Assembly: GCA_964016885.1 (NCBI GenBank)
Contig: OZ024740.1
Span: 69,936,001-70,000,000, forward strand
DNA length: 64,000 nucleotides
Direction of reading: 5' to 3'
Source: Eledone cirrhosa
Taxonomy: Eukaryota
Shown piece after piece: positions 26,767 through 48,951 of this stretch (position 1 is its first letter; every line of letters starts with the position of its first letter). The position numbers were made by a program, and so were the translations under genes. The notes under the pieces were generated by a model. That model did no database searches. It was given only the letters and a program-made list of their open reading frames with translations, and was not told the DNA's origin.

Positions 26767-28660
26767 ATGGATGACTCAGATTCACTCCTTCCTCACAATC
26801 CAACACCTCACACCGACACCACCATTGTAAACATTGCTACGTTTGCCAACACTGGAATTGTAAGCAGTAGCAATATTTTAAATTTGTCTCAGGCAGACGT
26901 TTATTTCCCGCCATTACCAATGACTGCAGGTGTTAAAGCCGCCACCACCACCACCACCACCGCAACAGCCACCACCCCACCATCACCAGAAACAAAAGAA
27001 AAAAATTAATTAACTCATGATATCGAAATGAATTCAACCAACATGAACTCTTCCACACCGAACACCACTGACGCCACCACCACCACAACTGAAACTAAAA
27101 TTAACAATAGCAAAAATAACGATAATAACAACAGCAACAATGAAATTAAGAAAACTACCCTGAGTTTTGCCAGAGTAGCAAAAACGTGCGAAGCGATCCA
27201 GGTAACTCAGGAAGAATTAGACGAAGCCAAAGGAATGGTAAAGAAAGATGGGTACAGGGTCAGCCTCACCCCCACCCTCTACCCCCACCTAATAAAATGG
27301 AGCAACGTCGCCTATGCACCGTGTCTTATCGGACAATAAACATAAAATCGCGCCGAGTGGAACGGGCATCTGAGTCCCAAATCCAAAAAGCTTTGGACAT
27401 GTGTGGGCAAAAAAACCTACATCAGACGTGGGCAGAAGTATGGAACCGTGGACGTGTTCTTTGAAACACCACAGGAGGCCAGAGAACACTCCATGGCCCC
27501 ATTAAGAAGTGACGATTTCACACTCATCCCAAGCTATTGTGGCCAGAGACTTGTGAAGATCAGGGTGACCCACGTTCCACCGGCCATCGAAATTCCCTGA
27601 CTAATGGCTGCCGTCCTCGCCGGCATCGAGGCCAACACCAAAATAATAGAAATAGCAAAAGAAAAGCAGGAGAACTGGTCCGGATCTGGGATGGAACTCC
27701 TGATCCAAGCGGACCATAAAAGCATTGAGGAGATCCCAGAGGTAATAGACCTCACTGACGGCAGCCACCTCACCGGAATCGTCGAGAGCAGAAGACCTAG
27801 GTGTGTCGTTTGTGGTGAAGGAACCCACCTAAGGGCTTTCTGCTCTCAGGCTAAAAGGTTGAGGCCACCTCTCTTACCCACCTCAGTGACTCAACCATCA
27901 ACACCACCAGCAGCAGAAATGGCAGCAACAACTGTAGCAGCAACAACAGAAGCAACTGTAACATCAACAACCCCAGCAACAGTAGCAAAACCAACACCAC
28001 CACCACCCAACGCCCCAGGACTAGCACCAGCGCCTACACCATCCACCACGCCACAATCAAAACACCCGCCTGTGGAGGATTTTCTACTCCCCGGCTTATT
28101 GCAACTGGAGACAGATTGCGACGACGAGGAGTGGGAAACGGTATCAGGAAAAAAGAAGAAAAAAAGAAACCAAAAAATAAAAAATTCTCTTCCTTCCCCC
28201 TCAAAAAAACAAAATATAGAGGGAAACAAATAAATTATCGAACAAGAAAGTTAGGACAGATATGCCACCATCCACACCAGCATCACCAATCCCATCACCA
28301 CAAACACCAACACCAAAAAGCGTAACAGAAACAAACCCACAACAAACGCAAAGAAAACAAAACAACCAAAACGATACACACTACACAGCATTAAATTTGA
28401 ACAACAACCAATTATTACACTACATGCAACACAACACCAGCATCACAGAAAAAGACTACACAACAACCCAAAAGTTCACACGACCTCCACACATACAAAT
28501 CACTCGCATCACACAGAATACGTACACGGCAAAAATTCCCCAAAGACATCGGAGACTTCCGACAAACACTCTCCAGGAGGATTTATAAGGACATCGTTCC
28601 GGAGGAGGCCACAAGCAGTGAAAAGAATGGACAAACATCCTTCCTCTACGAGAAGTAAGG
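26767..28660 (+). pseudogene. LINE ORF1 (gag-like), broken
   Basis: LSFARVA, RRGQKYGTVDVFF, CVVCGEGTHLRAFC, EEWETVSGKKKKK; several stops and frameshifts. Confidence 0.8.
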
Positions 28661-28697
28661 TAAGTGGTCTTTCCCATCTTTTCCACTCCATTTCAAC

Positions 28698-31600
28698 ATG
28701 ACCTCACTCAGAATAGGCAGCATAAATGCGCGTGGCTTGGGGTCGTCATGGAAGCAGGGCCACCTGCTCAACGACCTCAGTTCACTAAACATAAATGTAG
28801 TGGCCATCAGCGAGACCACAATCTCCAAAGCACGGGCCTTCACACCGATCTTCGGCGGCTACGATGTGTACGCATCTCCCAGCCGTCCGGGATCGGGGAG
28901 GAGTTGCTGTGCTTTTTCGGAGAGGTTTGGATCTCGCCATACGGGCCATCTTCCTGGACCCAGAAGGTAAGTTGGTGGTGCTAGAGGTGACCAGCGGAGA
29001 CGGGCAAGCTTTCTGGCTAGTGGCCGTCTATGCCCCGACAGGAGCAGGGCGGCCTGATTTCTTCCGGCGTCTGGAGACCTTTCTTGGAACCTCCCGCTCT
29101 TTAGTGTTAGTGGGCGGCTGGAACGGTATCTTAGATGCACGCTGGGACTGTGTGGGATTAGCGGATAGGGGAGGAGGGTGCAAGAGCCTCACCAACCTGC
29201 TCAGGCATTTTGAACTGTCTGACAGGTACCGATTGGATTTCCCGAATGTGCCAATGTGGACTTGGACAAATCGCATAGGGTCATCCAGATCATATCTAGA
29301 TAGAGTATTTTGTAGAGAAATAGATAGGTCTAGCATAGGCTGTCCACAATTCAAGATAGTCAGCTACACGGACCACAAATTCGTGATCTGTGTACTTGAC
29401 TTAGATAGGCTACATAGACGAGGACCCGGCTACTGGAAGCTAAACGCGTCCTTACCAACGCGCAAGGCCTACAGAGACCGGATTAGCGAACTAGTTAAGC
29501 GGGCGTTGACGGGGGCCATCGTCAACAACAAGTGGTGGTTTGCTCTGAAAAGAGCAATTAGAATAGAGTCCATTAGATTTAGTAAGGCTTTAGCAATAGA
29601 GAAAAATAGAGCAGAAGGAGAATTAGTTAGAAAATTAGATGAGGCGCTTAGCAAAGGCATCGCGACCGACGTACTTGCGGCGAAATTGGCCATTGACCAA
29701 TTCTTCAATGCAAAGCACGAAGGCTGCGTTGTCAGAGCTAAGGTGCGTGCTCTCAGACACGAGGGGACGAAAGCCGTTCAATGGACCCGAGTGGCGGAGG
29801 CGCATCGTGGCAACAACGCCACGCTCCGGTCTTTGGTGGACCACGACGGGCGCACGCTACTCGACCCCGGGCAAATGCGTGAAGCTTTTCAGCGACACTT
29901 CGCTCAGTTGTTCGGGGGCAGCGGCGGGGCGGATCGAGGGATAGACTTTAGTGTCTACCTCGTCGGACTGCCGCGGCTCTCGGCCACTGAGGCGGAGTGT
30001 TGCGAAAAGCCGATAACAGCCGCTGAAGTACGGGAGGCAATGACTAGCTGCACAAGGGGTAATCGACTGGTTTGCGTACAGATGCCAGACTTATTCGGAG
30101 GCCTCTTGGCGGACGTCTACTGCAACTGGCAACAGAACGGGAGAATTCCCAGCTCTGTGAGCCGAGGAGCTCTGGCGCTGCTGAGAAAGGATCCGAACAG
30201 GGGGGATAACATAGATAATTTTAGGCCCATAACTCTGCTAAACACAGAGTTCAAGATTTTGGCCAAGGTGCTAGCAAAGAGGTTGGCGCTTGTCGTTGAT
30301 GGTCTTGGTGGGAGAGGCGCAGACATGCACCATTCCCGACAGATCCATCCACGACAACCTCCACTTCATGCGATACATCGTAGAGAGGGTAGCTAGGGAA
30401 CCTGGAAACGAGTGGGTCCTTCATCAATTTAGATAAGTCGAAAGCTTTCGATAGGGTCGACCATCGTTACCTAGCGGCAGTCCTGAGGGCGGCTGGCTTT
30501 GGGTCGTCTTCAGAGGCTGGATCGCTGCCATGCACAGAGACATCTGCTCTGTGGTGAGAGTGAATGGTCACCTTTCGGAACCGTTCAACATCATGCGCTT
30601 GGTCCGCCAAGGATGTCCCCTCTCGTCCCTCGTGTACGTATTTACTCTCGAGCCTTTACTGCACAAACTGGAGACGTTGAGGGGGATCCCGCGCGAACTA
30701 GGATGCGGAAGATCCGTGTCAGCATATGCGGACGATGTCATCGTAGTGGTGTCGAACGCCAAACACATCGAGGCGATCGGCACTACACTAAGAGAATACG
30801 AAGCTGTGACAGGAGCAATGATCAACCAGGAAAAGTCAGTGAGCCTGCAGCTCGGCACCTGGAGAGGCAGGTCCATGCCGTCCAACAGCGTTGTCGGGCG
30901 CTGGACGGACGGACCAGTGAAATTGCTCGGGGTCTGGATCGGTCCAGATCTCCAGACGGACAAAAACTGGGACGAGGTGAAGAGCAGGGTGGCTTCTCTC
31001 ACCCAGAAATGGGCTGAGAGGAAGGTATCCCTGAAAGGTCGAGCGGAGGTGGCTAACGCGTATATCGCGTCCGTGATCTACTACCGCCTGACCGTCGTAC
31101 GTTGTCCTAAGCCCCGCCTGACTGCGCTGGAGCGTTTGCTCTTTCGCTTTTTGTGGAAGGGACGCGCTCCGATGGTCAGGCGGTCCATCTGCTGTCAACA
31201 CCCGCTACGTGGAGGGCTGGGAATGCTGTAGCTCATGATGCGCAAACACGCGCTCAGACTACGACATCTCCACCTCCTCCTCGAAGTTGATCAGGTGTGG
31301 TCTCCGTTTGCTAGACACGTATTTCCCCAGCTCGTCTCCTTGACGGAGCTGCAGTCCTGGGTCAAGCGAAGACCAAGGGGGGGCGCTTGGAGACTGGAAT
31401 GTCTTCAGGCGCTCACAGCCCTCGACCAATCGGGCAATGTGATCGGTGGAAACTCCACCTTGGCGTTCTATAGAGGATTAGTTGAGGGAAAGAGCGACGA
31501 CGTACTTGGGGAAACTCTAGGCGTCGACGAAAATCAACTAACCAATATCTTCGGAAGAACTTTCGGGCCGGGGCCTATGGACAACTTCCAGAAATCCCTG

Positions 31601-32092: not shown

Positions 32093-35000
32093 ATTAAAGA
32101 TGGAAAACTGGGAGAGGGCACTTGCCCTGGTGGTCAGGGTCACTGTGGCCTTTTAATGGGCTTTCTCTACAAATGTCCCTCGGAAGTCTCCCCCCTATTG
32201 GGGAATTTTCCATTGTTATTTTTTGTTAAATCCTGTTTTGTTTTTTTTTACACGCAGAAATGCCCATTTGTACCGTCCTGTATTGTCCTGTACTGTCCTT
32301 AATGTCTACTTTATGTAAACCCTAGTGGTTAATAAAGAAAGCATTATTATAATTATTATTATTATTTTTACTATTATTGTTGTTGTTGTTCTTTTTTGTT
32401 GTTCTTTTCTTACCGCAGGCGCCTGAGGATTACCTTCAGTAGCGCTACGCTAAACTGGCGTGTGGGAGACCCACGAGTTCATCCATGCTGGAGCCGGGTT
32501 GGTGGTGATACCATCCACCATCAAGGCCGGACACCTCATCCAAAGATGTTCGGAGGATTCTTCTTCCTCTCCGCACAGACGGCATGTGTTGATTTCCGCT
32601 TTGCCGATCATATGGAGCCATCTCCTTAATGACGTGTGATGTCCACTGCGGAAGCGGACGAGATGGTTCATATCTGCTTTGGAGAGAGTTTGCTACTCTC
32701 GTCATTTGGGTGGCGGCTAAAGACTGCTTGTAGACGTTGATGCTGGATCGGTGGTGGGCGAAATTCCAACCGAATAACGGCGCGTCGCGTGGCGGCATCG
32801 ATTGAACTTTCCAGTTGAGTAGATGCTGAGGCTTGTTTCGCCTGAAAAGCACTGGTGAAAAGCATTGGTGAAAGGACGGAACCTTGCGGAAGCCCTTCTT
32901 TACACACGCGACTATGACCAGTGTTCCCATCAATTCGGACTCTTGTTATACGGTTTGTAAACCACGCGGATAACCACTCGACGAAACGCAGGGGAATGCC
33001 AAGCCTGGTCATATCTTGCAGCAGTCTTGTTGAGTTTCGAACACCCTGGATGTTGAGTCGTAGCTCCCGTACATCTTTCCTAGTCTTTTTATCTGGCTTT
33101 CTTCCGCTAACTGCGGCATACTCTTGAATGAAAGCTGCAGCTTTCGATCGGTCGCTAGCATAGGTCGCCCCTTTGTATAGTATGGACTTGCTGTTGTTTG
33201 CGCAGCCTTTTCCTGACAACGATCGAACTACTGACCAGGCCATTTTACTAGCTTTTGTCTCAGATATCGTCTGTAGGTGTTTCCTCCAGGCCTCACTCTT
33301 GCACTTATCTGTTTTTATAACCACCTCGCGTGAGGTCTCCAACCACCCTTTGCGATTGTTCTTAAGATCTCGCCTGAGATGATTGCGTTTTTTTATCAGA
33401 CTTTTTAGCTCCGCTGTCATCCATGAACATTCATTCTTACTGATGGCCTTCATGGGAACTGCCACGGCTTCTGCCTTTTTAAGGAGTGTGAGAAGTGCTG
33501 CCCATTTATTTGAGGATGAAGCTTCATCGGAGACTTTGTTAATTCCCTCTTTAACGAATTCCCACAATTTTGGCCAGTCTGCTTTTTGATAGTTTCTCCG
33601 TGGTTTCTGTCGTGGTCGTTCTACCTGAAGATTAACACCCCAGTGGAAGATGATCTGAGCCGAGATCATTCATAGTATACCATGAGAATTGGTTGACTGG
33701 GTCTAGATTTACTATTGTAAGATCCGGTGCACTTATTCCTGCTCCCTGTTGGTATCTCGCGGCTCGCGTCGGGGTTCCATAATTTAGAATGGATTTGGAG
33801 TTGTCTTCAAGCCAAGTGATGATATCTGAACCGCAGGTATCAGCTTTTGCAAACTGGTCCCACGTCGAATGGTGAGCATTGAAATCTCCGCAGATAATTC
33901 CTCGTTGATTTGATAGGTTGTGTATCCAGACGGTGTTATTCGACGGCTGCTGGGCATAGCCAGATTTTTGCGGGGGAAGGTAGGCGTTTGTGACGGAAAA
34001 CTGACGTCTACTGGTTAGCTGGATGACAATCCGTTGTTGTTGCAGGGGGCTTGTGTTAACACGCGGTGGTACCGAGAACTGTATGCCCTGCCGGATGTAG
34101 ATCATCAGTCCACCTCCACGGTGGTGTAATGTACCGCTGCCTTGTCGGTCCTGGCGAATTGCGTCATAGCCGTCAATTGTATGGGGTTGGATCTTTATGC
34201 CCTAATTTGGTTTCTTGGATAGTTGCAACGTCTATATTGTGTTTCAATACGAACTCTTTTAATTCTATTATCTTCGATGGAATGAAATCTGCATTCCATT
34301 GTAAAAATTGGAGCTTACGTACAGTCGTCCTTGGCATTTGTGTACGTACTGTCGTATGTGTTGTCTGATCTAGGGTGGTTGGGGGATGGCATTGAGCGCA
34401 AGTGCCGCATGTCGATTCGTTGTGTTGTCGTAGCCGTTCTAATGCATATTTTGTTTCAGGTGCGCACTTGAGATGAAATGTGCGGTGACAAGTTTTGCAT
34501 ATAAGCGGTTTTTTGGAGTGAGCTAGACGACATTTATAAGTAGGACAGTCGGTGTTAATGGATGCAGCGACTTGTGGGACTTGAGAGGAGTTGGATGAGT
34601 TTACAACAGATGTATTATGTACATGGGGGATGGTAATGCTCGATGTGTTGTGGGCTAAAATTACATTATCGTTAGTGGGGGGGGGCATTGTTGGTGTTAA
34701 GAAGATATTATGTGGTGAGTGGGCTGGTATCACAGACTGTTCTTGGTTGTGGTGGGTTGTAAAAGTATGTTGGTGGGTTGTTGGAGGCATGCTAGGCGCT
34801 ATTGAGTCCTACGGATGTTGAGATGGGTGTACAATATGTGGTTGGGGAGATGAAGGTGTTGTGACTGTACAGGTTGAGCATTGCCATATGGGGAAAGTGT
34901 TATATCGAGAAATGCCAGTGCATTGTCTATGCGCATTGTTGGAGCATGATTGACATTTGATCGATTTGATGTTTGTGCGGATCTTTCCCTGGCATAGGTG

Positions 35001-35187
35001 GCATCAGAGATTTTGATCACTTGCTGGCGATAAGCGTTGGCACTACGGCTGTCCCCGACAGAAACTGCAGACGAAGCTTTGATGACTCTTCTGTTGACCT
35101 CGAGTCAAGCCGCTACATTTCCTGGCAGGTCTTGCAGATGAACGGTGCCAAGTCACGGCGAATCGTCTTGGCATACCCTGGGCAGAG

Positions 35188-35238
35188 GGGTCCTGAGTTG
35201 ATCTCGATGTCGCCCGCCAGGAGGAGGATTAACCGGAG
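35188..35238 (-). other. 2A-like (StopGo) peptide, P-to-S variant
   Basis: LRLILLLAGDIEINSGP versus consensus D(V/I)ExNPGP. Confidence 0.75.
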
Positions 35239-35307
35239 ATACAGGGTGGGAGTTACACCCCAGGTTATAGAAAAATGGTGCGTCTCCCACGGCGCAGTCT
35301 GGGTAAG

Positions 35308-35390
35308 ATATGGTCCGAGTTCGTAAGTCGCCTGAAGACGACCCAACACAGCACACCACTGGAAGGTCTCGGTCCATATAAACGTGCTGA
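35308..35390 (-). ncRNA. HDV/CPEB3-like self-cleaving ribozyme
   Basis: P1 (T)CAGCAC/GTGCTG(T); P2 ATATGG-A-CCGAG/CTCGG-A-CCATAT; P3 ACC/GGT; L3 TTCCAGT; J1/4 GT; P4 TGGGTCG/CGACTTA; J4/2 CGAA. Confidence 0.88.
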
Positions 35391-35935
35391 TGCTGCTGCC
35401 GCTGCCACTGTCACCCCAGTTGTTATTGTCAATACCGCCGCCGCTGTTTCTACCTCTATTGTTGTTAAATGTATCAGCATCATTCACTTCTCGACCACTG
35501 CTTGATGACGAAGAGAACGAAATAGTTTTCGCCTGACATTTACTGTGGCGATGACTAAACGAAAAAGGAAAAGTACGAAAAGGATAGCGAGACTCGTCGC
35601 TGACAGCTGGATTATTATTGCGGAAGTATACACGTCGCAGGAATTTGTGTTCCGGTAAGTTTGCGATTTTTGTATAGTTTAATTGCGAACGTATCTTTAA
35701 AATATGGTATTGTTTTATTTCTATACACACCCCGCTTCTCTTGAAGAGGTCGAAATAAATTGTTGTTTAGCCTTCCTGGGCGAAATTCCAATTTGAACTT
35801 TGCATTTAGCAAATACGCCCCCCCCCCCCCCCCCAAGAAAAATGGCGTCATTAAAAAAAAACATATCTCTCTGCCATGTATACACACAAAAAATTACTCC
35901 TTCAGCAGAGTATCCATCTCAATCTTGTCTTTCTG
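35391..35935. mobile_element. 5' fragment of a Tx1-like LINE with its first ~315 bp inverted
   Basis: 35622-35935(+) matches 48896-48580(-); 35391-35610(-) matches the continuation at about 48575-48400(-). Confidence 0.8.
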
Positions 35936-36071
35936 TTGTTCTGGTGCTGCTGTTACCGGTGGTGCTGCTGCTGCTGCTGCTACTCCGTTCATTGCTGGTG
36001 TTGCTGTTGACGATGATGGTGACAGTGGTGGTTGAGATCACTGTTGTTGTTATCATCATTAATATTATAAA

Positions 36072-36472
36072 GGTGGTGGGTTGGCAGAATCGGTAGATCG
36101 TCATTCACCATGCTTCCTGGCATAGAGTTACGGCCCTTTATATTCTGAGTTCATATACCATCAAGGTTAGCTTTGCCTTTCGTCCTTACGGGGTCGAAAA
36201 AACAAAGTACCGGTAATGCACTGGAATCCATTAAATCGACATTCCCATCCCCCAAAATTGCTGGCCTTGCGCCTAAAGTATAAATAATTGTTTCCATTTT
36301 AGGCAGAAGGCCAGCAATTACCCAATACATTACTGGTACTTTATTTTATCGACCCCGTAAGGATGGAAGGCAAAGTTAACCTCGGCCGGATTTGAACTCA
36401 GATTGTAAAGGGACGTAACTATGCTGGAAAGCATGTCCGACCCTCTACCGACACTGCCAATTCACCGCCCTT
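36072..36472. mobile_element. Two SINE copies, tail to tail
   Basis: Plus copy about 36072-36290; minus copy about 36290-36472. Confidence 0.85.
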
Positions 36473-36839
36473 CAATAATAATTATTATTATCGCCATCAT
36501 CATCACTCGAGGAAAAAACTTCCACTCTTCTTACAATAAGTCTTTATGGGGATTATAGTAATTCTTACTACTAATACAGCTGCTCCTGCTGTTACTACAC
36601 CTACTTAAGAGTTCCGAATGTACTTTTCAGAAGTATTTCACCCTACATTTGTTTCTCTTGTTGATAAGAATCAGACGAGCCAGTGAACCAAATGTAGGAC
36701 ATATGAGGGACAACACCCTCGGCGGGCATGGAGTAAAAAACTTACGCACTGCTATTCAGTGTTTTGTTTCTCTTCTTTTCGCTAACTTACTATCAGTTCA
36801 TACAGACAAACATGACGTGCGTTTTTCATTATCTTCATT

Positions 36840-36952
36840 ATATACATGTATGTGTGTATATATATATATATGTGTGTGTGTGTGCGTATATACATACATA
36901 TGTATATATATATTTATATATGTATATATGTATATGTATATATAATATAATA

Positions 36953-36984
<32 letters not shown>

Positions 36985-37050
36985 ATACATATATATATAT
37001 ATATAATACATATATATATATATAATACATATATATATAATATATATGTA

Positions 37051-47200: not shown

Positions 47201-48896
47201 TTCTTCTTTCTTCACCTTCGCTTTTGGAGAGAGAAGCTGTTATGTTTTTGCGTTTGTTCTTTTTGTTAACAACTGTTTTCCACTCCTCAGCCGCCTCATA
47301 CTCCATTTCCGACTGTGAGAGGTCGGGGAGGGGTATGAGTTCTACCCTCTCATTTGTCTTTGTTGTTGTTATTGGTGGTGGTGGTGGTGGAACCTGGTCT
47401 GCCGTTCTTGGCATTGTTGCAGCTAGTGCAACTGTTTCTATTGCTACAGCTGCCGTCGCTGTTTTTGTTGGCTGTGGTGTGGGTGCCACGGACATTGTCT
47501 TCCTATTCTCTGTAGAAGCTCCCGACTTTTTCGCTGATCGCTCTGTTTCTGATGGCAGCGGTTCCGGCGTTGGAAAGAGGGGGATTCAGAAAGCCCTGAG
47601 GTGAGACTTTGATCCACAGTTGAAGTACTTTGGGCGCCTTCCTTCAACAGATATGGGAAGTTGGGAGCCATGCCCGAGGTCTATTACGTCGGGAATAGCG
47701 CTGATGCAGTCTTGGTCGGTTTGGATGAGCAGCTCCATTCCAATACTGGACCAGTCCACTCTCCCCAACTTCTGTGCCTGCAGAATGGTTGTTTTATCTA
47801 CGATGCCCTTAAGAACAGACACGACTAGCCAAGGCACGGGTACGTAGGGCGGAACCTGGTTTGCCTTGACCTTTGCAATTTTTTTCCCGCAGTAAAACGG
47901 GACTAATGTTATGTCATCACTCCGTAGGGTCCTCAGTGACTGCGATTTTGCTTCCTGGGTGGTAGCAAAAAGGACGTCCACAGTAGCATATTTCTTGCCA
48001 CGCGTGATGTGGGTCTTTCGTGCCCAGACATTTCCCAAGGCCTTCTGAGTTTGGGCCTCCGAGGTTTTCTCCACACGACGCGATTTCGTGGCAATCGTGC
48101 GGTACGACACTGTGCGTCGCTCTTGTTCCTCCAGGAAGTCGGTTGGTGGTTTCAAGGACACTGAAAATTCAGTTCTGGTTAGCATGTCTGGCGACTGCCA
48201 TCTCCTCCTCTGTGATCATGACTGTTTCTACGTTGGGAGTTACCATTGCAAAAGAGATGGTCATTTTTTCAGTGGTGTCATAGTTGCCACCGCTACTGCT
48301 GCTACTGGTCTTGTTGTTTGTGGTGGTGATGTTGTTGCCACTGCTACAGACGGTGTTGTTGGTGTTGCTGCTGCTGCTGTTGCTGCTGCTACCACAGGTG
48401 TTATTGTTAATATTGCCGCTGCTGCTGCTATCTCCTTTGTTGTCAAATGCATCAGCAGCAGCCGCTTCACGACCGCCGCTTGATGAAGAGGAAGGAGTGG
48501 CATTCGCCTGACTTTTTACTATGTGACGATGAAGAAGACGGAAAGGAAAGCGAGACTCCACGCTGAAATCTGGGCGAAGAAAGAGAAGGTTGAGAAGGAT
48601 ACCTTGCTGAATGGGTAATTTTTGATTAGATACATGGCATGGAAATAGATTTTTTGAATGACGCCATTTTTTCTTCTTTTTTTTTTGGGGGGGGGGGGGG
48701 GGGGGCGTATTTGCTAAATGCAAAGTTCAAATCGGTATTTAGCCCCGAAGGGCTAAATACCGATTAATTTCGACCACTTCAAAAGAAGCGGGGTGTGTTT
48801 AAACACAAAATATGATTTTTACATTAAGTTCGCAATAAAAACTGTTCAAAAATCACAAACTAACGGGAACAAAATTTCCTGCGACGTGTATACTTC
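44238..48896 (-). mobile_element. Tx1/L1-clade LINE, 5'-intact, 3'-truncated, with internal deletions
   Basis: ORF1 pieces (RGKKYATVDV, YFNCGSKSHLRAF), APE ORF 45826-46725, RT pieces (NFRPITLLN, VRQGC, AYADD); 5' end abuts (AAC)n. Confidence 0.92.
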
Positions 48897-48951
48897 TACA
48901 ACAACAAACAACAACAACAACAACAATGAAAGTTGGGTAACGTATCTTTAC

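What the first reader, a model, noticed from the sequence alone, without database searches (positions are those of the whole stretch)
35188..35390. HDV/CPEB3-like ribozyme followed by a 2A-like peptide at the 5' end of an Ingi/I-like LINE
Seen: a complete HDV-type fold (P1 CAGCAC/GUGCUG, extended P2, P3 ACC/GGU, L3 UUCCAGU, J1/4 GU, 7-bp P4, J4/2 CGAA with the catalytic C). It begins exactly where the element meets unrelated Tx1 sequence. Position +1 is U rather than the usual G. LLLAGDIEINSGP follows downstream with no in-frame AUG between the element's 5' end and the peptide. Known: trypanosome L1Tc combines a 5' HDV-like ribozyme with a 2A peptide, and each feature occurs in some animal LINEs. 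Inference: self-processing out of host transcripts and non-canonical translation initiation.
Basis: partly seen in the sequence, partly recalled or inferred. Interest (0 to 1): 0.75.

Follow-up and report, generated by a model that had tools for sequence, protein, structure and literature searches.

The report
Ribozyme-2A LINE behind captured Tx1 leader
A decayed animal jumping gene carries a fold typical of a self-cutting RNA followed by a ribosome-skip motif, but almost all copies of its family sit behind a leader borrowed from another jumping gene, so the cutter likely marks the ancestral start and was likely bypassed most of the time; cutting and skipping are untested.

Summary
The HDV-type fold (minus strand, 35389/35390-35308) and the 2A-like motif (35226-35188) are real, in a dead copy of an Ingi-type LINE. 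A sister family (B) has a different-sequence fold with compensatory changes, which supports the structure. All 13 A-family copies that span the ribozyme start, and 20 of 22 B copies, keep this leader (40 nt to over 1 kb, graded 5' ends, target-site duplications outside the leader). Only 2 B copies, one full-length with a 16-nt duplication, begin at the ribozyme. So the ribozyme probably marks the ancestral 5' end and cut only a minority of templates. The unpaired U before P1 is family-wide; NSGP is private to this copy (family NPGP). Leader AUGs run in frame through the B ribozyme, so non-canonical initiation is not required. B also has a 22-nt insert in L3. Ribozyme plus 2A is the known L1Tc layout; this scan noted it once before in another genome. 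No activity was measured.

The parts
35612..35934 (-). Leader, block 1: inverted copy of the 5'-terminal ~330 nt of a Tx1-type LINE
   Evidence: 78% identity, opposite orientation, to window 48578-48907; shared by A and B copies
35391..35610 (-). Leader, block 2: Tx1 5' region in sense orientation, ending in a (CAG)-like run; AUGs at 35483 and 35480
   Evidence: 72% identity to window 48573-48362; frames; this copy has a private 1-nt loss at the junction
35390..35396 (-). Alternative P1 5' strand GCAGCAU supplied by the CAG run; would give a 7-bp P1 opening with G.U
   Evidence: Descriptor found this second register; favoured in constrained folding of this copy; prediction only
35308..35390 (-). 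HDV-like ribozyme fold (P1, P2, P3/L3, P4, J4/2 with putative catalytic C at 35323)
   Evidence: Sequence; null test; pair counts in 12 A and 22 B copies
35273..35298 (-). Short hairpin followed by a U run, present in both families; role unknown
   Evidence: Read by eye from the alignment
35188..35226 (-). 2A-like motif LLLAGDIEINSGP (family form ends NPGP)
32410..35187 (-). Decayed single ORF: Cys/His fingers, APE, part of RT, C-terminal zinc knuckle; stops, frameshifts and about 1.7 kb deleted relative to the longest A copy
   Evidence: Pfam APE and RT hits; translation; gaps against L041; RNase H and weak PHD hit in B copies
32365..32409 (-). 3' tail of A/AAC/AAT repeats, abutting the 3' end of an oppositely oriented Tx1-type copy
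48362..48907 (-). 5' end of a separate Tx1-type element in the window; shows the native order of the leader blocks
   Evidence: its body is 77-83% identical to the Tx1-type copy at 28657-31439, whose RT fragment has a homologue named transposon TX1 149 kDa protein

Best explanation
This is a decayed copy of an Ingi-type LINE whose body opens with an HDV-like fold and a 2A-like motif, and whose family carries a Tx1-derived leader in front of that fold; the ribozyme likely marked the ancestral 5' end and was likely bypassed in most of the RNAs that were copied. Shown: fold, motif, domain order, leader ancestry, distribution of 5' ends, duplications outside the leader. Inferred: (1) the ancestral element was promoter-less, inserted into CAG/CAA-type repeats, and was cut out of read-through transcripts by the ribozyme; (2) a master came to lie in, or switched template onto, a 5'-inverted Tx1 5' end, and the same leader then headed both families; (3) cleavage was slow or partial, so uncut leader-bearing RNA was reverse transcribed, and promoter-bearing progeny outnumbered leaderless ones; (4) occasional cleavage gave the two B copies that start at P1; (5) translation probably began at an ordinary upstream AUG, with 2A removing the N-terminal peptide.
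For: Fold conserved between families with different letters: first P1 pair C-G in A and G-C in B; P2 G-C versus A-U; P4 U-A versus C-G and G-C versus A-U; putative catalytic C in 11 of 12 A and 22 of 22 B copies. Leader in 13 of 13 A and 20 of 22 B copies that span the start. Further pattern searches added no A copy (11 of 11 new hits were chance); the B search added only two 3-mismatch hits against 4 control hits, and these were not inspected. Leader is part of the copied RNA: graded 5' ends and two different further-upstream extensions; duplications ending at or near the leader break in L097, L103, L111 (by eye); an inversion inside the leader in L091; 3' flanks differ, so the leader is not a fixed target. 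Two B copies start at P1: L106 is full length (4864 nt) with a 16-nt duplication ending at the first G; L102 shares its internal-deletion junction with 8 leader-bearing copies, so it probably lost the leader afterwards. Chance of 2 such ends: 0.0007 if uniform, 0.02-0.06 if only microhomology sites are usable (rough inputs). Kojima 2018 (PMC5786205, section 23) expects an active ribozyme to strip any 5' head.
Against: No activity data. The two leaderless copies could be truncations at a 1-3 nt microhomology; other truncations also cluster (several at -40 to -65, two near +133). No A copy starts at the ribozyme, so A may never have cut after capture. The tree of 21 B copies is mostly a star; the supported branch holding L106 may rest on a homopolymer tract. 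The in-frame AUG link is weak: in B it crosses a T run of variable length (frame kept in 9 of 19); in A only 1 of 5 measurable copies is in frame through the ribozyme, and the case rests on a thin plurality of segment lengths. A promoter in the leader was not shown. TSDs were printed for only 7 of 12 intended copies; L100 shows none and L104 only a weak one.
Confidence: 0.68

Rival explanations
1. One reading: the ribozyme is the working 5' end of this element, cuts it from host transcripts, and translation starts without an AUG.
For: Fold intact; 2 of 22 B copies start at P1; the 2A frame is open and AUG-free through the ribozyme in this copy.
Against: 0 of 13 A copies start there and 20 of 22 B copies keep the leader; upstream AUGs are available in B.
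Confidence: 0.1
2. The ribozyme was already dead when the leader was captured (unpaired first position, U.U in A and A.G in B); the fold is a fossil and the two leaderless copies are ordinary truncations.
For: In the 7-bp register the first pair is a mismatch in 11 of 12 A and 20 of 20 B copies. A U-U mismatch in P1 has been invoked for an inactive HDV-like ribozyme (PMC3774820, passage). Truncation hot spots exist.
Against: In the 6-bp register both families have a Watson-Crick first pair. R2 P1 stems are typically 6 or 7 bp (PMC3774820), trypanosomatid ribozymes cut before C1 (PMC4035085, passage), and U at -1 is the best base for genomic HDV (PMC1874588, abstract). Two copies from different structural types end at the same place.
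Confidence: 0.17
3. The element is site-specific for the Tx1 5' region, as R2 is for 28S, and the 'leader' is only its target.
For: A and B join the same upstream sequence about 18 nt apart; two copies sit in Tx1-like coding sequence (L041, L039).
Against: 3' flanks do not continue the Tx1 5' region; duplications lie outside the leader; the leader has one fixed inversion relative to native Tx1.
Confidence: 0.05

Closest known systems
L1Tc/NARTc and ingi/RIME of trypanosomes (L1TcRz in Pr77, plus 2A)
   Same: 5' HDV-like fold, 2A near the N terminus, single ORF with APE, RT and RNase H, internally deleted short derivatives (PMC3185411, PMC4035085, PMC5786205; passages read).
   Different: There the ribozyme is the first 77 nt and doubles as promoter. 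Here it lies 40 to over 1000 nt inside most copies, behind a Tx1-derived leader; Cys/His fingers follow 2A; family B has a 29-nt L3.
Metazoan Ingi elements with 2A (Ingi-1_AC, Odon et al. 2013, PMC3708506)
   Same: Animal (mollusc) Ingi with a 2A-like sequence in the same N-terminal position. 7 of 38 database homologues of my two Ingi-type queries also carry the motif.
   Different: The passages read report no ribozyme ('ribozyme' occurs 0 times in that paper's main text). I could not read Ruminski 2011 or Kojima 2011, which may cover animal Ingi ribozymes.
R2 and Dong/R4 ribozymes (PMC3774820)
   Same: 6-7 bp P1; the P1 5' strand can come from target sequence, as the CAG run might here in family A.
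   Different: R2 is site-specific in 28S, and its 5' junctions reflect the cleavage site. Here the target is dispersed microsatellite and most copies ignore the site.
5' transduction and 5' UTR replacement in SVA and L1 (recalled, no call)
   Same: Upstream flank copied along with the element, giving sub-lineages with new 5' ends.
   Different: Those elements have no ribozyme that should remove the flank.

Membership tests
HDV-like ribozyme | Nested double pseudoknot with P1, P2, P3, P4 in canonical order | tested here: met
   compensatory changes between families A and B
HDV-like ribozyme | Catalytic C in J4/2; U and G of the L3 reverse wobble | tested here: met
   C in 11/12 A and 22/22 B; L3 U 12/12 and 22/22, G 10/12 and 21/22
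HDV-like ribozyme | Paired first nucleotide with P1.1 stacked on it | tested here: inconclusive
   Paired in a 6-bp P1 register; mismatched in the 7-bp register that gives the better P1.1
HDV-like ribozyme | Match to an Rfam HDV/CPEB3-type model | tested here: not met
   None among 23 matches at E up to 10 in 34000-37000
HDV-like ribozyme | Self-cleavage 5' of P1 | not testable with these tools
   Only indirect: 2 of 22 B copies start at P1, 0 of 13 A copies
2A-like peptide | GD(V/I)ExNPGP motif | tested here: met
   Met for the family (NPGP in 5 of 8 other A copies, 7 of 20 B copies); not met for the window copy (NSGP)
2A-like peptide | Ribosome skipping | not testable with these tools
   The motif alone does not guarantee activity (PMC3708506, passage)
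Ingi clade LINE | Single ORF, no ORF1; APE, RT and RNase H (Vingi lacks RNase H, PMC13708176) | tested here: met
   Full-length B copy; Pfam. RNase H is deleted from the window copy; RNase H-like motifs were read by eye in an A-like fragment
Ingi clade LINE | Bipartite non-autonomous derivatives | tested here: met
   5' 0.5-1 kb joined to 3' 130-200 nt in both families
Ingi clade LINE | RT phylogeny with named Ingi/L1Tc references | not tested
   No named Ingi or L1Tc protein came back from the searches
L1Tc Pr77-type 5' end | Ribozyme forms the 5' terminus of full-length copies | tested here: not met
   33 of 35 copies spanning the site extend further 5'

The most novel reading that the evidence does not exclude
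The leader-ribozyme-2A head is a two-output module. Uncut, capped RNA from any upstream promoter is translated from an upstream AUG through the ribozyme, and 2A strips whatever peptide came first. A deliberately weak ribozyme sets the share of trimmed template, which lets the element capture and swap promoters repeatedly. Included are an HDV-like variant with a 22-nt insert in L3 (family B) and, in family A, a P1 5' strand that CAG target repeats can supply.
Probability: 0.22. Interest if true: 0.75.

Novelty: new variant of a known kind. Interest (0 to 1): 0.5.

Why it matters
If right, the L1Tc ribozyme-plus-2A design also occurs in an animal LINE. The copies then act as a genomic record of how often a LINE ribozyme actually trims its template: about 2 in 35 here. 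A 5' ribozyme has been argued to be incompatible with a captured 5' head (PMC5786205); these families show both together, which makes weak cleavage, frame read-through and promoter capture directly testable. The B-family L3 insert and the unusual first pair would widen the known tolerance of the HDV fold if they cleave. The families are small (14 and 26 copies found) and old, and every sampled copy inspected is broken, so there is no sign of a present-day function.

Tried and rejected
Rfam: no HDV-type hit. Idea that the leader specifically blocks P1.1 by extending P1: seen in folds but not beyond random 15-mers from the window (native values reached by 18-173 of 200 controls across 12 copies), so not used; the model lacks the pseudoknot. 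The long open frame 35113-35766 is not a gene: it results from this copy's private 1-nt loss and has no Pfam hit. Site-specific Tx1 targeting rejected. Third family in the genome: APE and RT searches gave only A-like and B-like copies, then other clades at about 27-35% (only the best 150 candidates scored); L164, inspected, is another clade without 2A. Metagenome scan: 80 loci, 2 with a 2A motif, none with my descriptor; they are mostly other clades, so this is uninformative. No RNA holder listed. Contigs of one run cover the stretch and show family letters at 35194/35196 and 35358 but cannot show ends. The automatic DNA alignment misregistered A against B, so no covariance model was built. 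Paper searches with no hit; one search listed two mollusc papers that I did not read. Rows dropped: L088 (near duplicate of L087) and L093 (truncated); L116-L120 in the tree.

Full report
Observation. The feature lies on the minus strand. The 2A-like motif is at 35226-35188. Rfam gives no HDV-type match and the nested fold is not unusually stable (z -1.3). A descriptor for the topology, written after seeing the site, hits only this site in the window and once in 300 shuffles of the element.

The element. Downstream lie Cys/His fingers, APE and part of RT and a C-terminal zinc knuckle, with stops and frameshifts and about 1.7 kb missing relative to the longest family copy. The window copy is dead. 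A full-length copy of a sister family (B; L106/L151, 4864 nt) shows one ORF with 2A, fingers, APE, RT, RNase H and knuckle. This is the Ingi layout as described in passages of PMC3185411, PMC3708506 and PMC13708176; an RT tree with named references was not made. Both families have short derivatives that join the 5' part to the 3' end, as NARTc and RIME do (PMC5786205). 7 of 38 database homologues carry a 2A motif near the N terminus. The best named homologue of the neighbouring Tx1-type RT is from Argonauta hians (67%), which suggests an octopod host; this is inference.

Census. A pattern search found 14 A-type ribozymes; a second pattern added 11 hits, all chance. Thirteen span the ribozyme start (two are near duplicates). 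A DNA search found 26 B copies, 22 of which span the start; a pattern search added two 3-mismatch hits against 4 control hits, which were not inspected. Between the families the helices keep pairing while letters change: first P1 pair C-G versus G-C, P2 G-C versus A-U, P4 U-A versus C-G and G-C versus A-U. This is the main support for the fold. B has a 29-nt L3, the usual seven bases plus a 22-nt insert predicted to form a weak hairpin. U before CAGCAC is in 10 of 12 A copies; the last L3 U and the S of NSGP are private to the window.

The 5' boundary. All 13 A copies and 20 of 22 B copies keep upstream sequence shared with the window. This leader matches the 5' end of a Tx1-type element at window 48907-48362, with its first ~330 nt inverted, the pattern expected of a twin-primed insertion. 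It was copied as RNA with the element: 5' ends are graded, B copies carry two different further extensions reaching about -770 and -1100, duplications end at or near the leader break in L097, L103 and L111 (7 of 12 intended copies printed, L100 without a clear duplication, L104 weak), and L091 has a second inversion inside the leader. The 3' flanks differ and are mostly CAG/CAA-type repeats, so the leader is not a fixed target.

Evidence that the ribozyme once set the end. L106 begins at the G of P1 with a 16-nt duplication ending there. L102 begins at the same place (one extra A) and shares its deletion junction with 8 leader-bearing copies. Two ends at a preset site have probability 0.0007 under uniform truncation and 0.02-0.06 if only microhomology sites are usable (rough inputs). 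Other ends also cluster, and the tree is mostly unresolved. I put the chance that these two reflect cleavage at about 0.7.

Cleavage register. With a 6-bp P1 the first pair is C-G (A) or G-C (B) and U is -1. R2 P1 stems are typically 6 or 7 bp (PMC3774820, passages), trypanosomatid ribozymes cut before C1 (PMC4035085, passages), and U-1 is best for genomic HDV (PMC1874588, abstract). In the window the CAG run offers a third register opening with G.U at 35396. The data do not choose among them. A special inhibitory effect of the leader was not shown.

Translation. In this copy no in-frame AUG lies between ribozyme and 2A. In B, leader AUGs are in frame through the ribozyme in 16 of 16 measurable copies (one ancestral junction, so one event), mostly without stops, but a T run then keeps the 2A frame in only 9 of 19. 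In 5 of 19 an AUG just after the ribozyme is in frame instead, where A has CUG. In A the plurality segment lengths (95, 100, 75 nt) sum to an in-frame link, but only 1 of 5 measurable copies is in frame through the ribozyme. So ordinary AUG initiation with 2A trimming is plausible and AUG-free initiation is not needed, but neither is shown.

Mechanism, most likely (0.68): an L1Tc-type head that originally freed the RNA from read-through transcripts; capture of a Tx1 5' end; weak cleavage, so leader-bearing RNA was copied and came to dominate; rare cleavage giving leaderless copies.

Known and new. Ribozyme plus 2A is known in L1Tc; 2A is known in animal Ingi (PMC3708506); Ingi is listed among ribozyme-bearing clades (PMC5786205, section 23). 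This scan noted the same pair in a LINE of another genome (e1-10334241; unchecked). Searches returned no paper on a ribozyme retained behind a captured leader, but those searches were narrow, two key papers were not held and no supplements were read. Papers seen: passages of PMC3894237, PMC3708506, PMC4035085, PMC3185411, PMC3774820, PMC13708176, PMC13405545; passages and one section of PMC5786205; abstract of PMC1874588; listings only for the rest. Verdict: new variant of a known kind, interest 0.5.

Noticed in passing
   Followed up: partly
window 35298-35273 and B copies: Both families have a hairpin followed by a U run between ribozyme and 2A; several B truncations end near it.
   Followed up: partly
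L096, L099, L101 upstream of -291: A sub-lineage with a shortened Tx1 leader and a different shared upstream extension, i.e. a second 5' capture.
   Followed up: partly
window 35934; L083, L092: Three A copies appear to share the same leader 5' end with different flanks, which hints at a discrete transcription start, possibly from antisense activity of the inverted Tx1 block.
   Followed up: no
L014/L015 (G000:C3:61474574-61474873): A-family copy with an internal inversion just 3' of the ribozyme, typical of twin priming.
   Followed up: no
window 36050-36490: Two inverted copies of a short, very common repeat that also recurs near many fetched loci; probably a SINE.
   Followed up: no
L041 and L039 flanks: An A and a B copy inserted independently into CAA/CAG-rich Tx1-like coding sequence, showing how the original capture could arise.
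   Followed up: partly
L172:1587, L194:494: Two metagenome LINE loci with a 2A-like motif but no HDV-like fold by my descriptor.
   Followed up: partly
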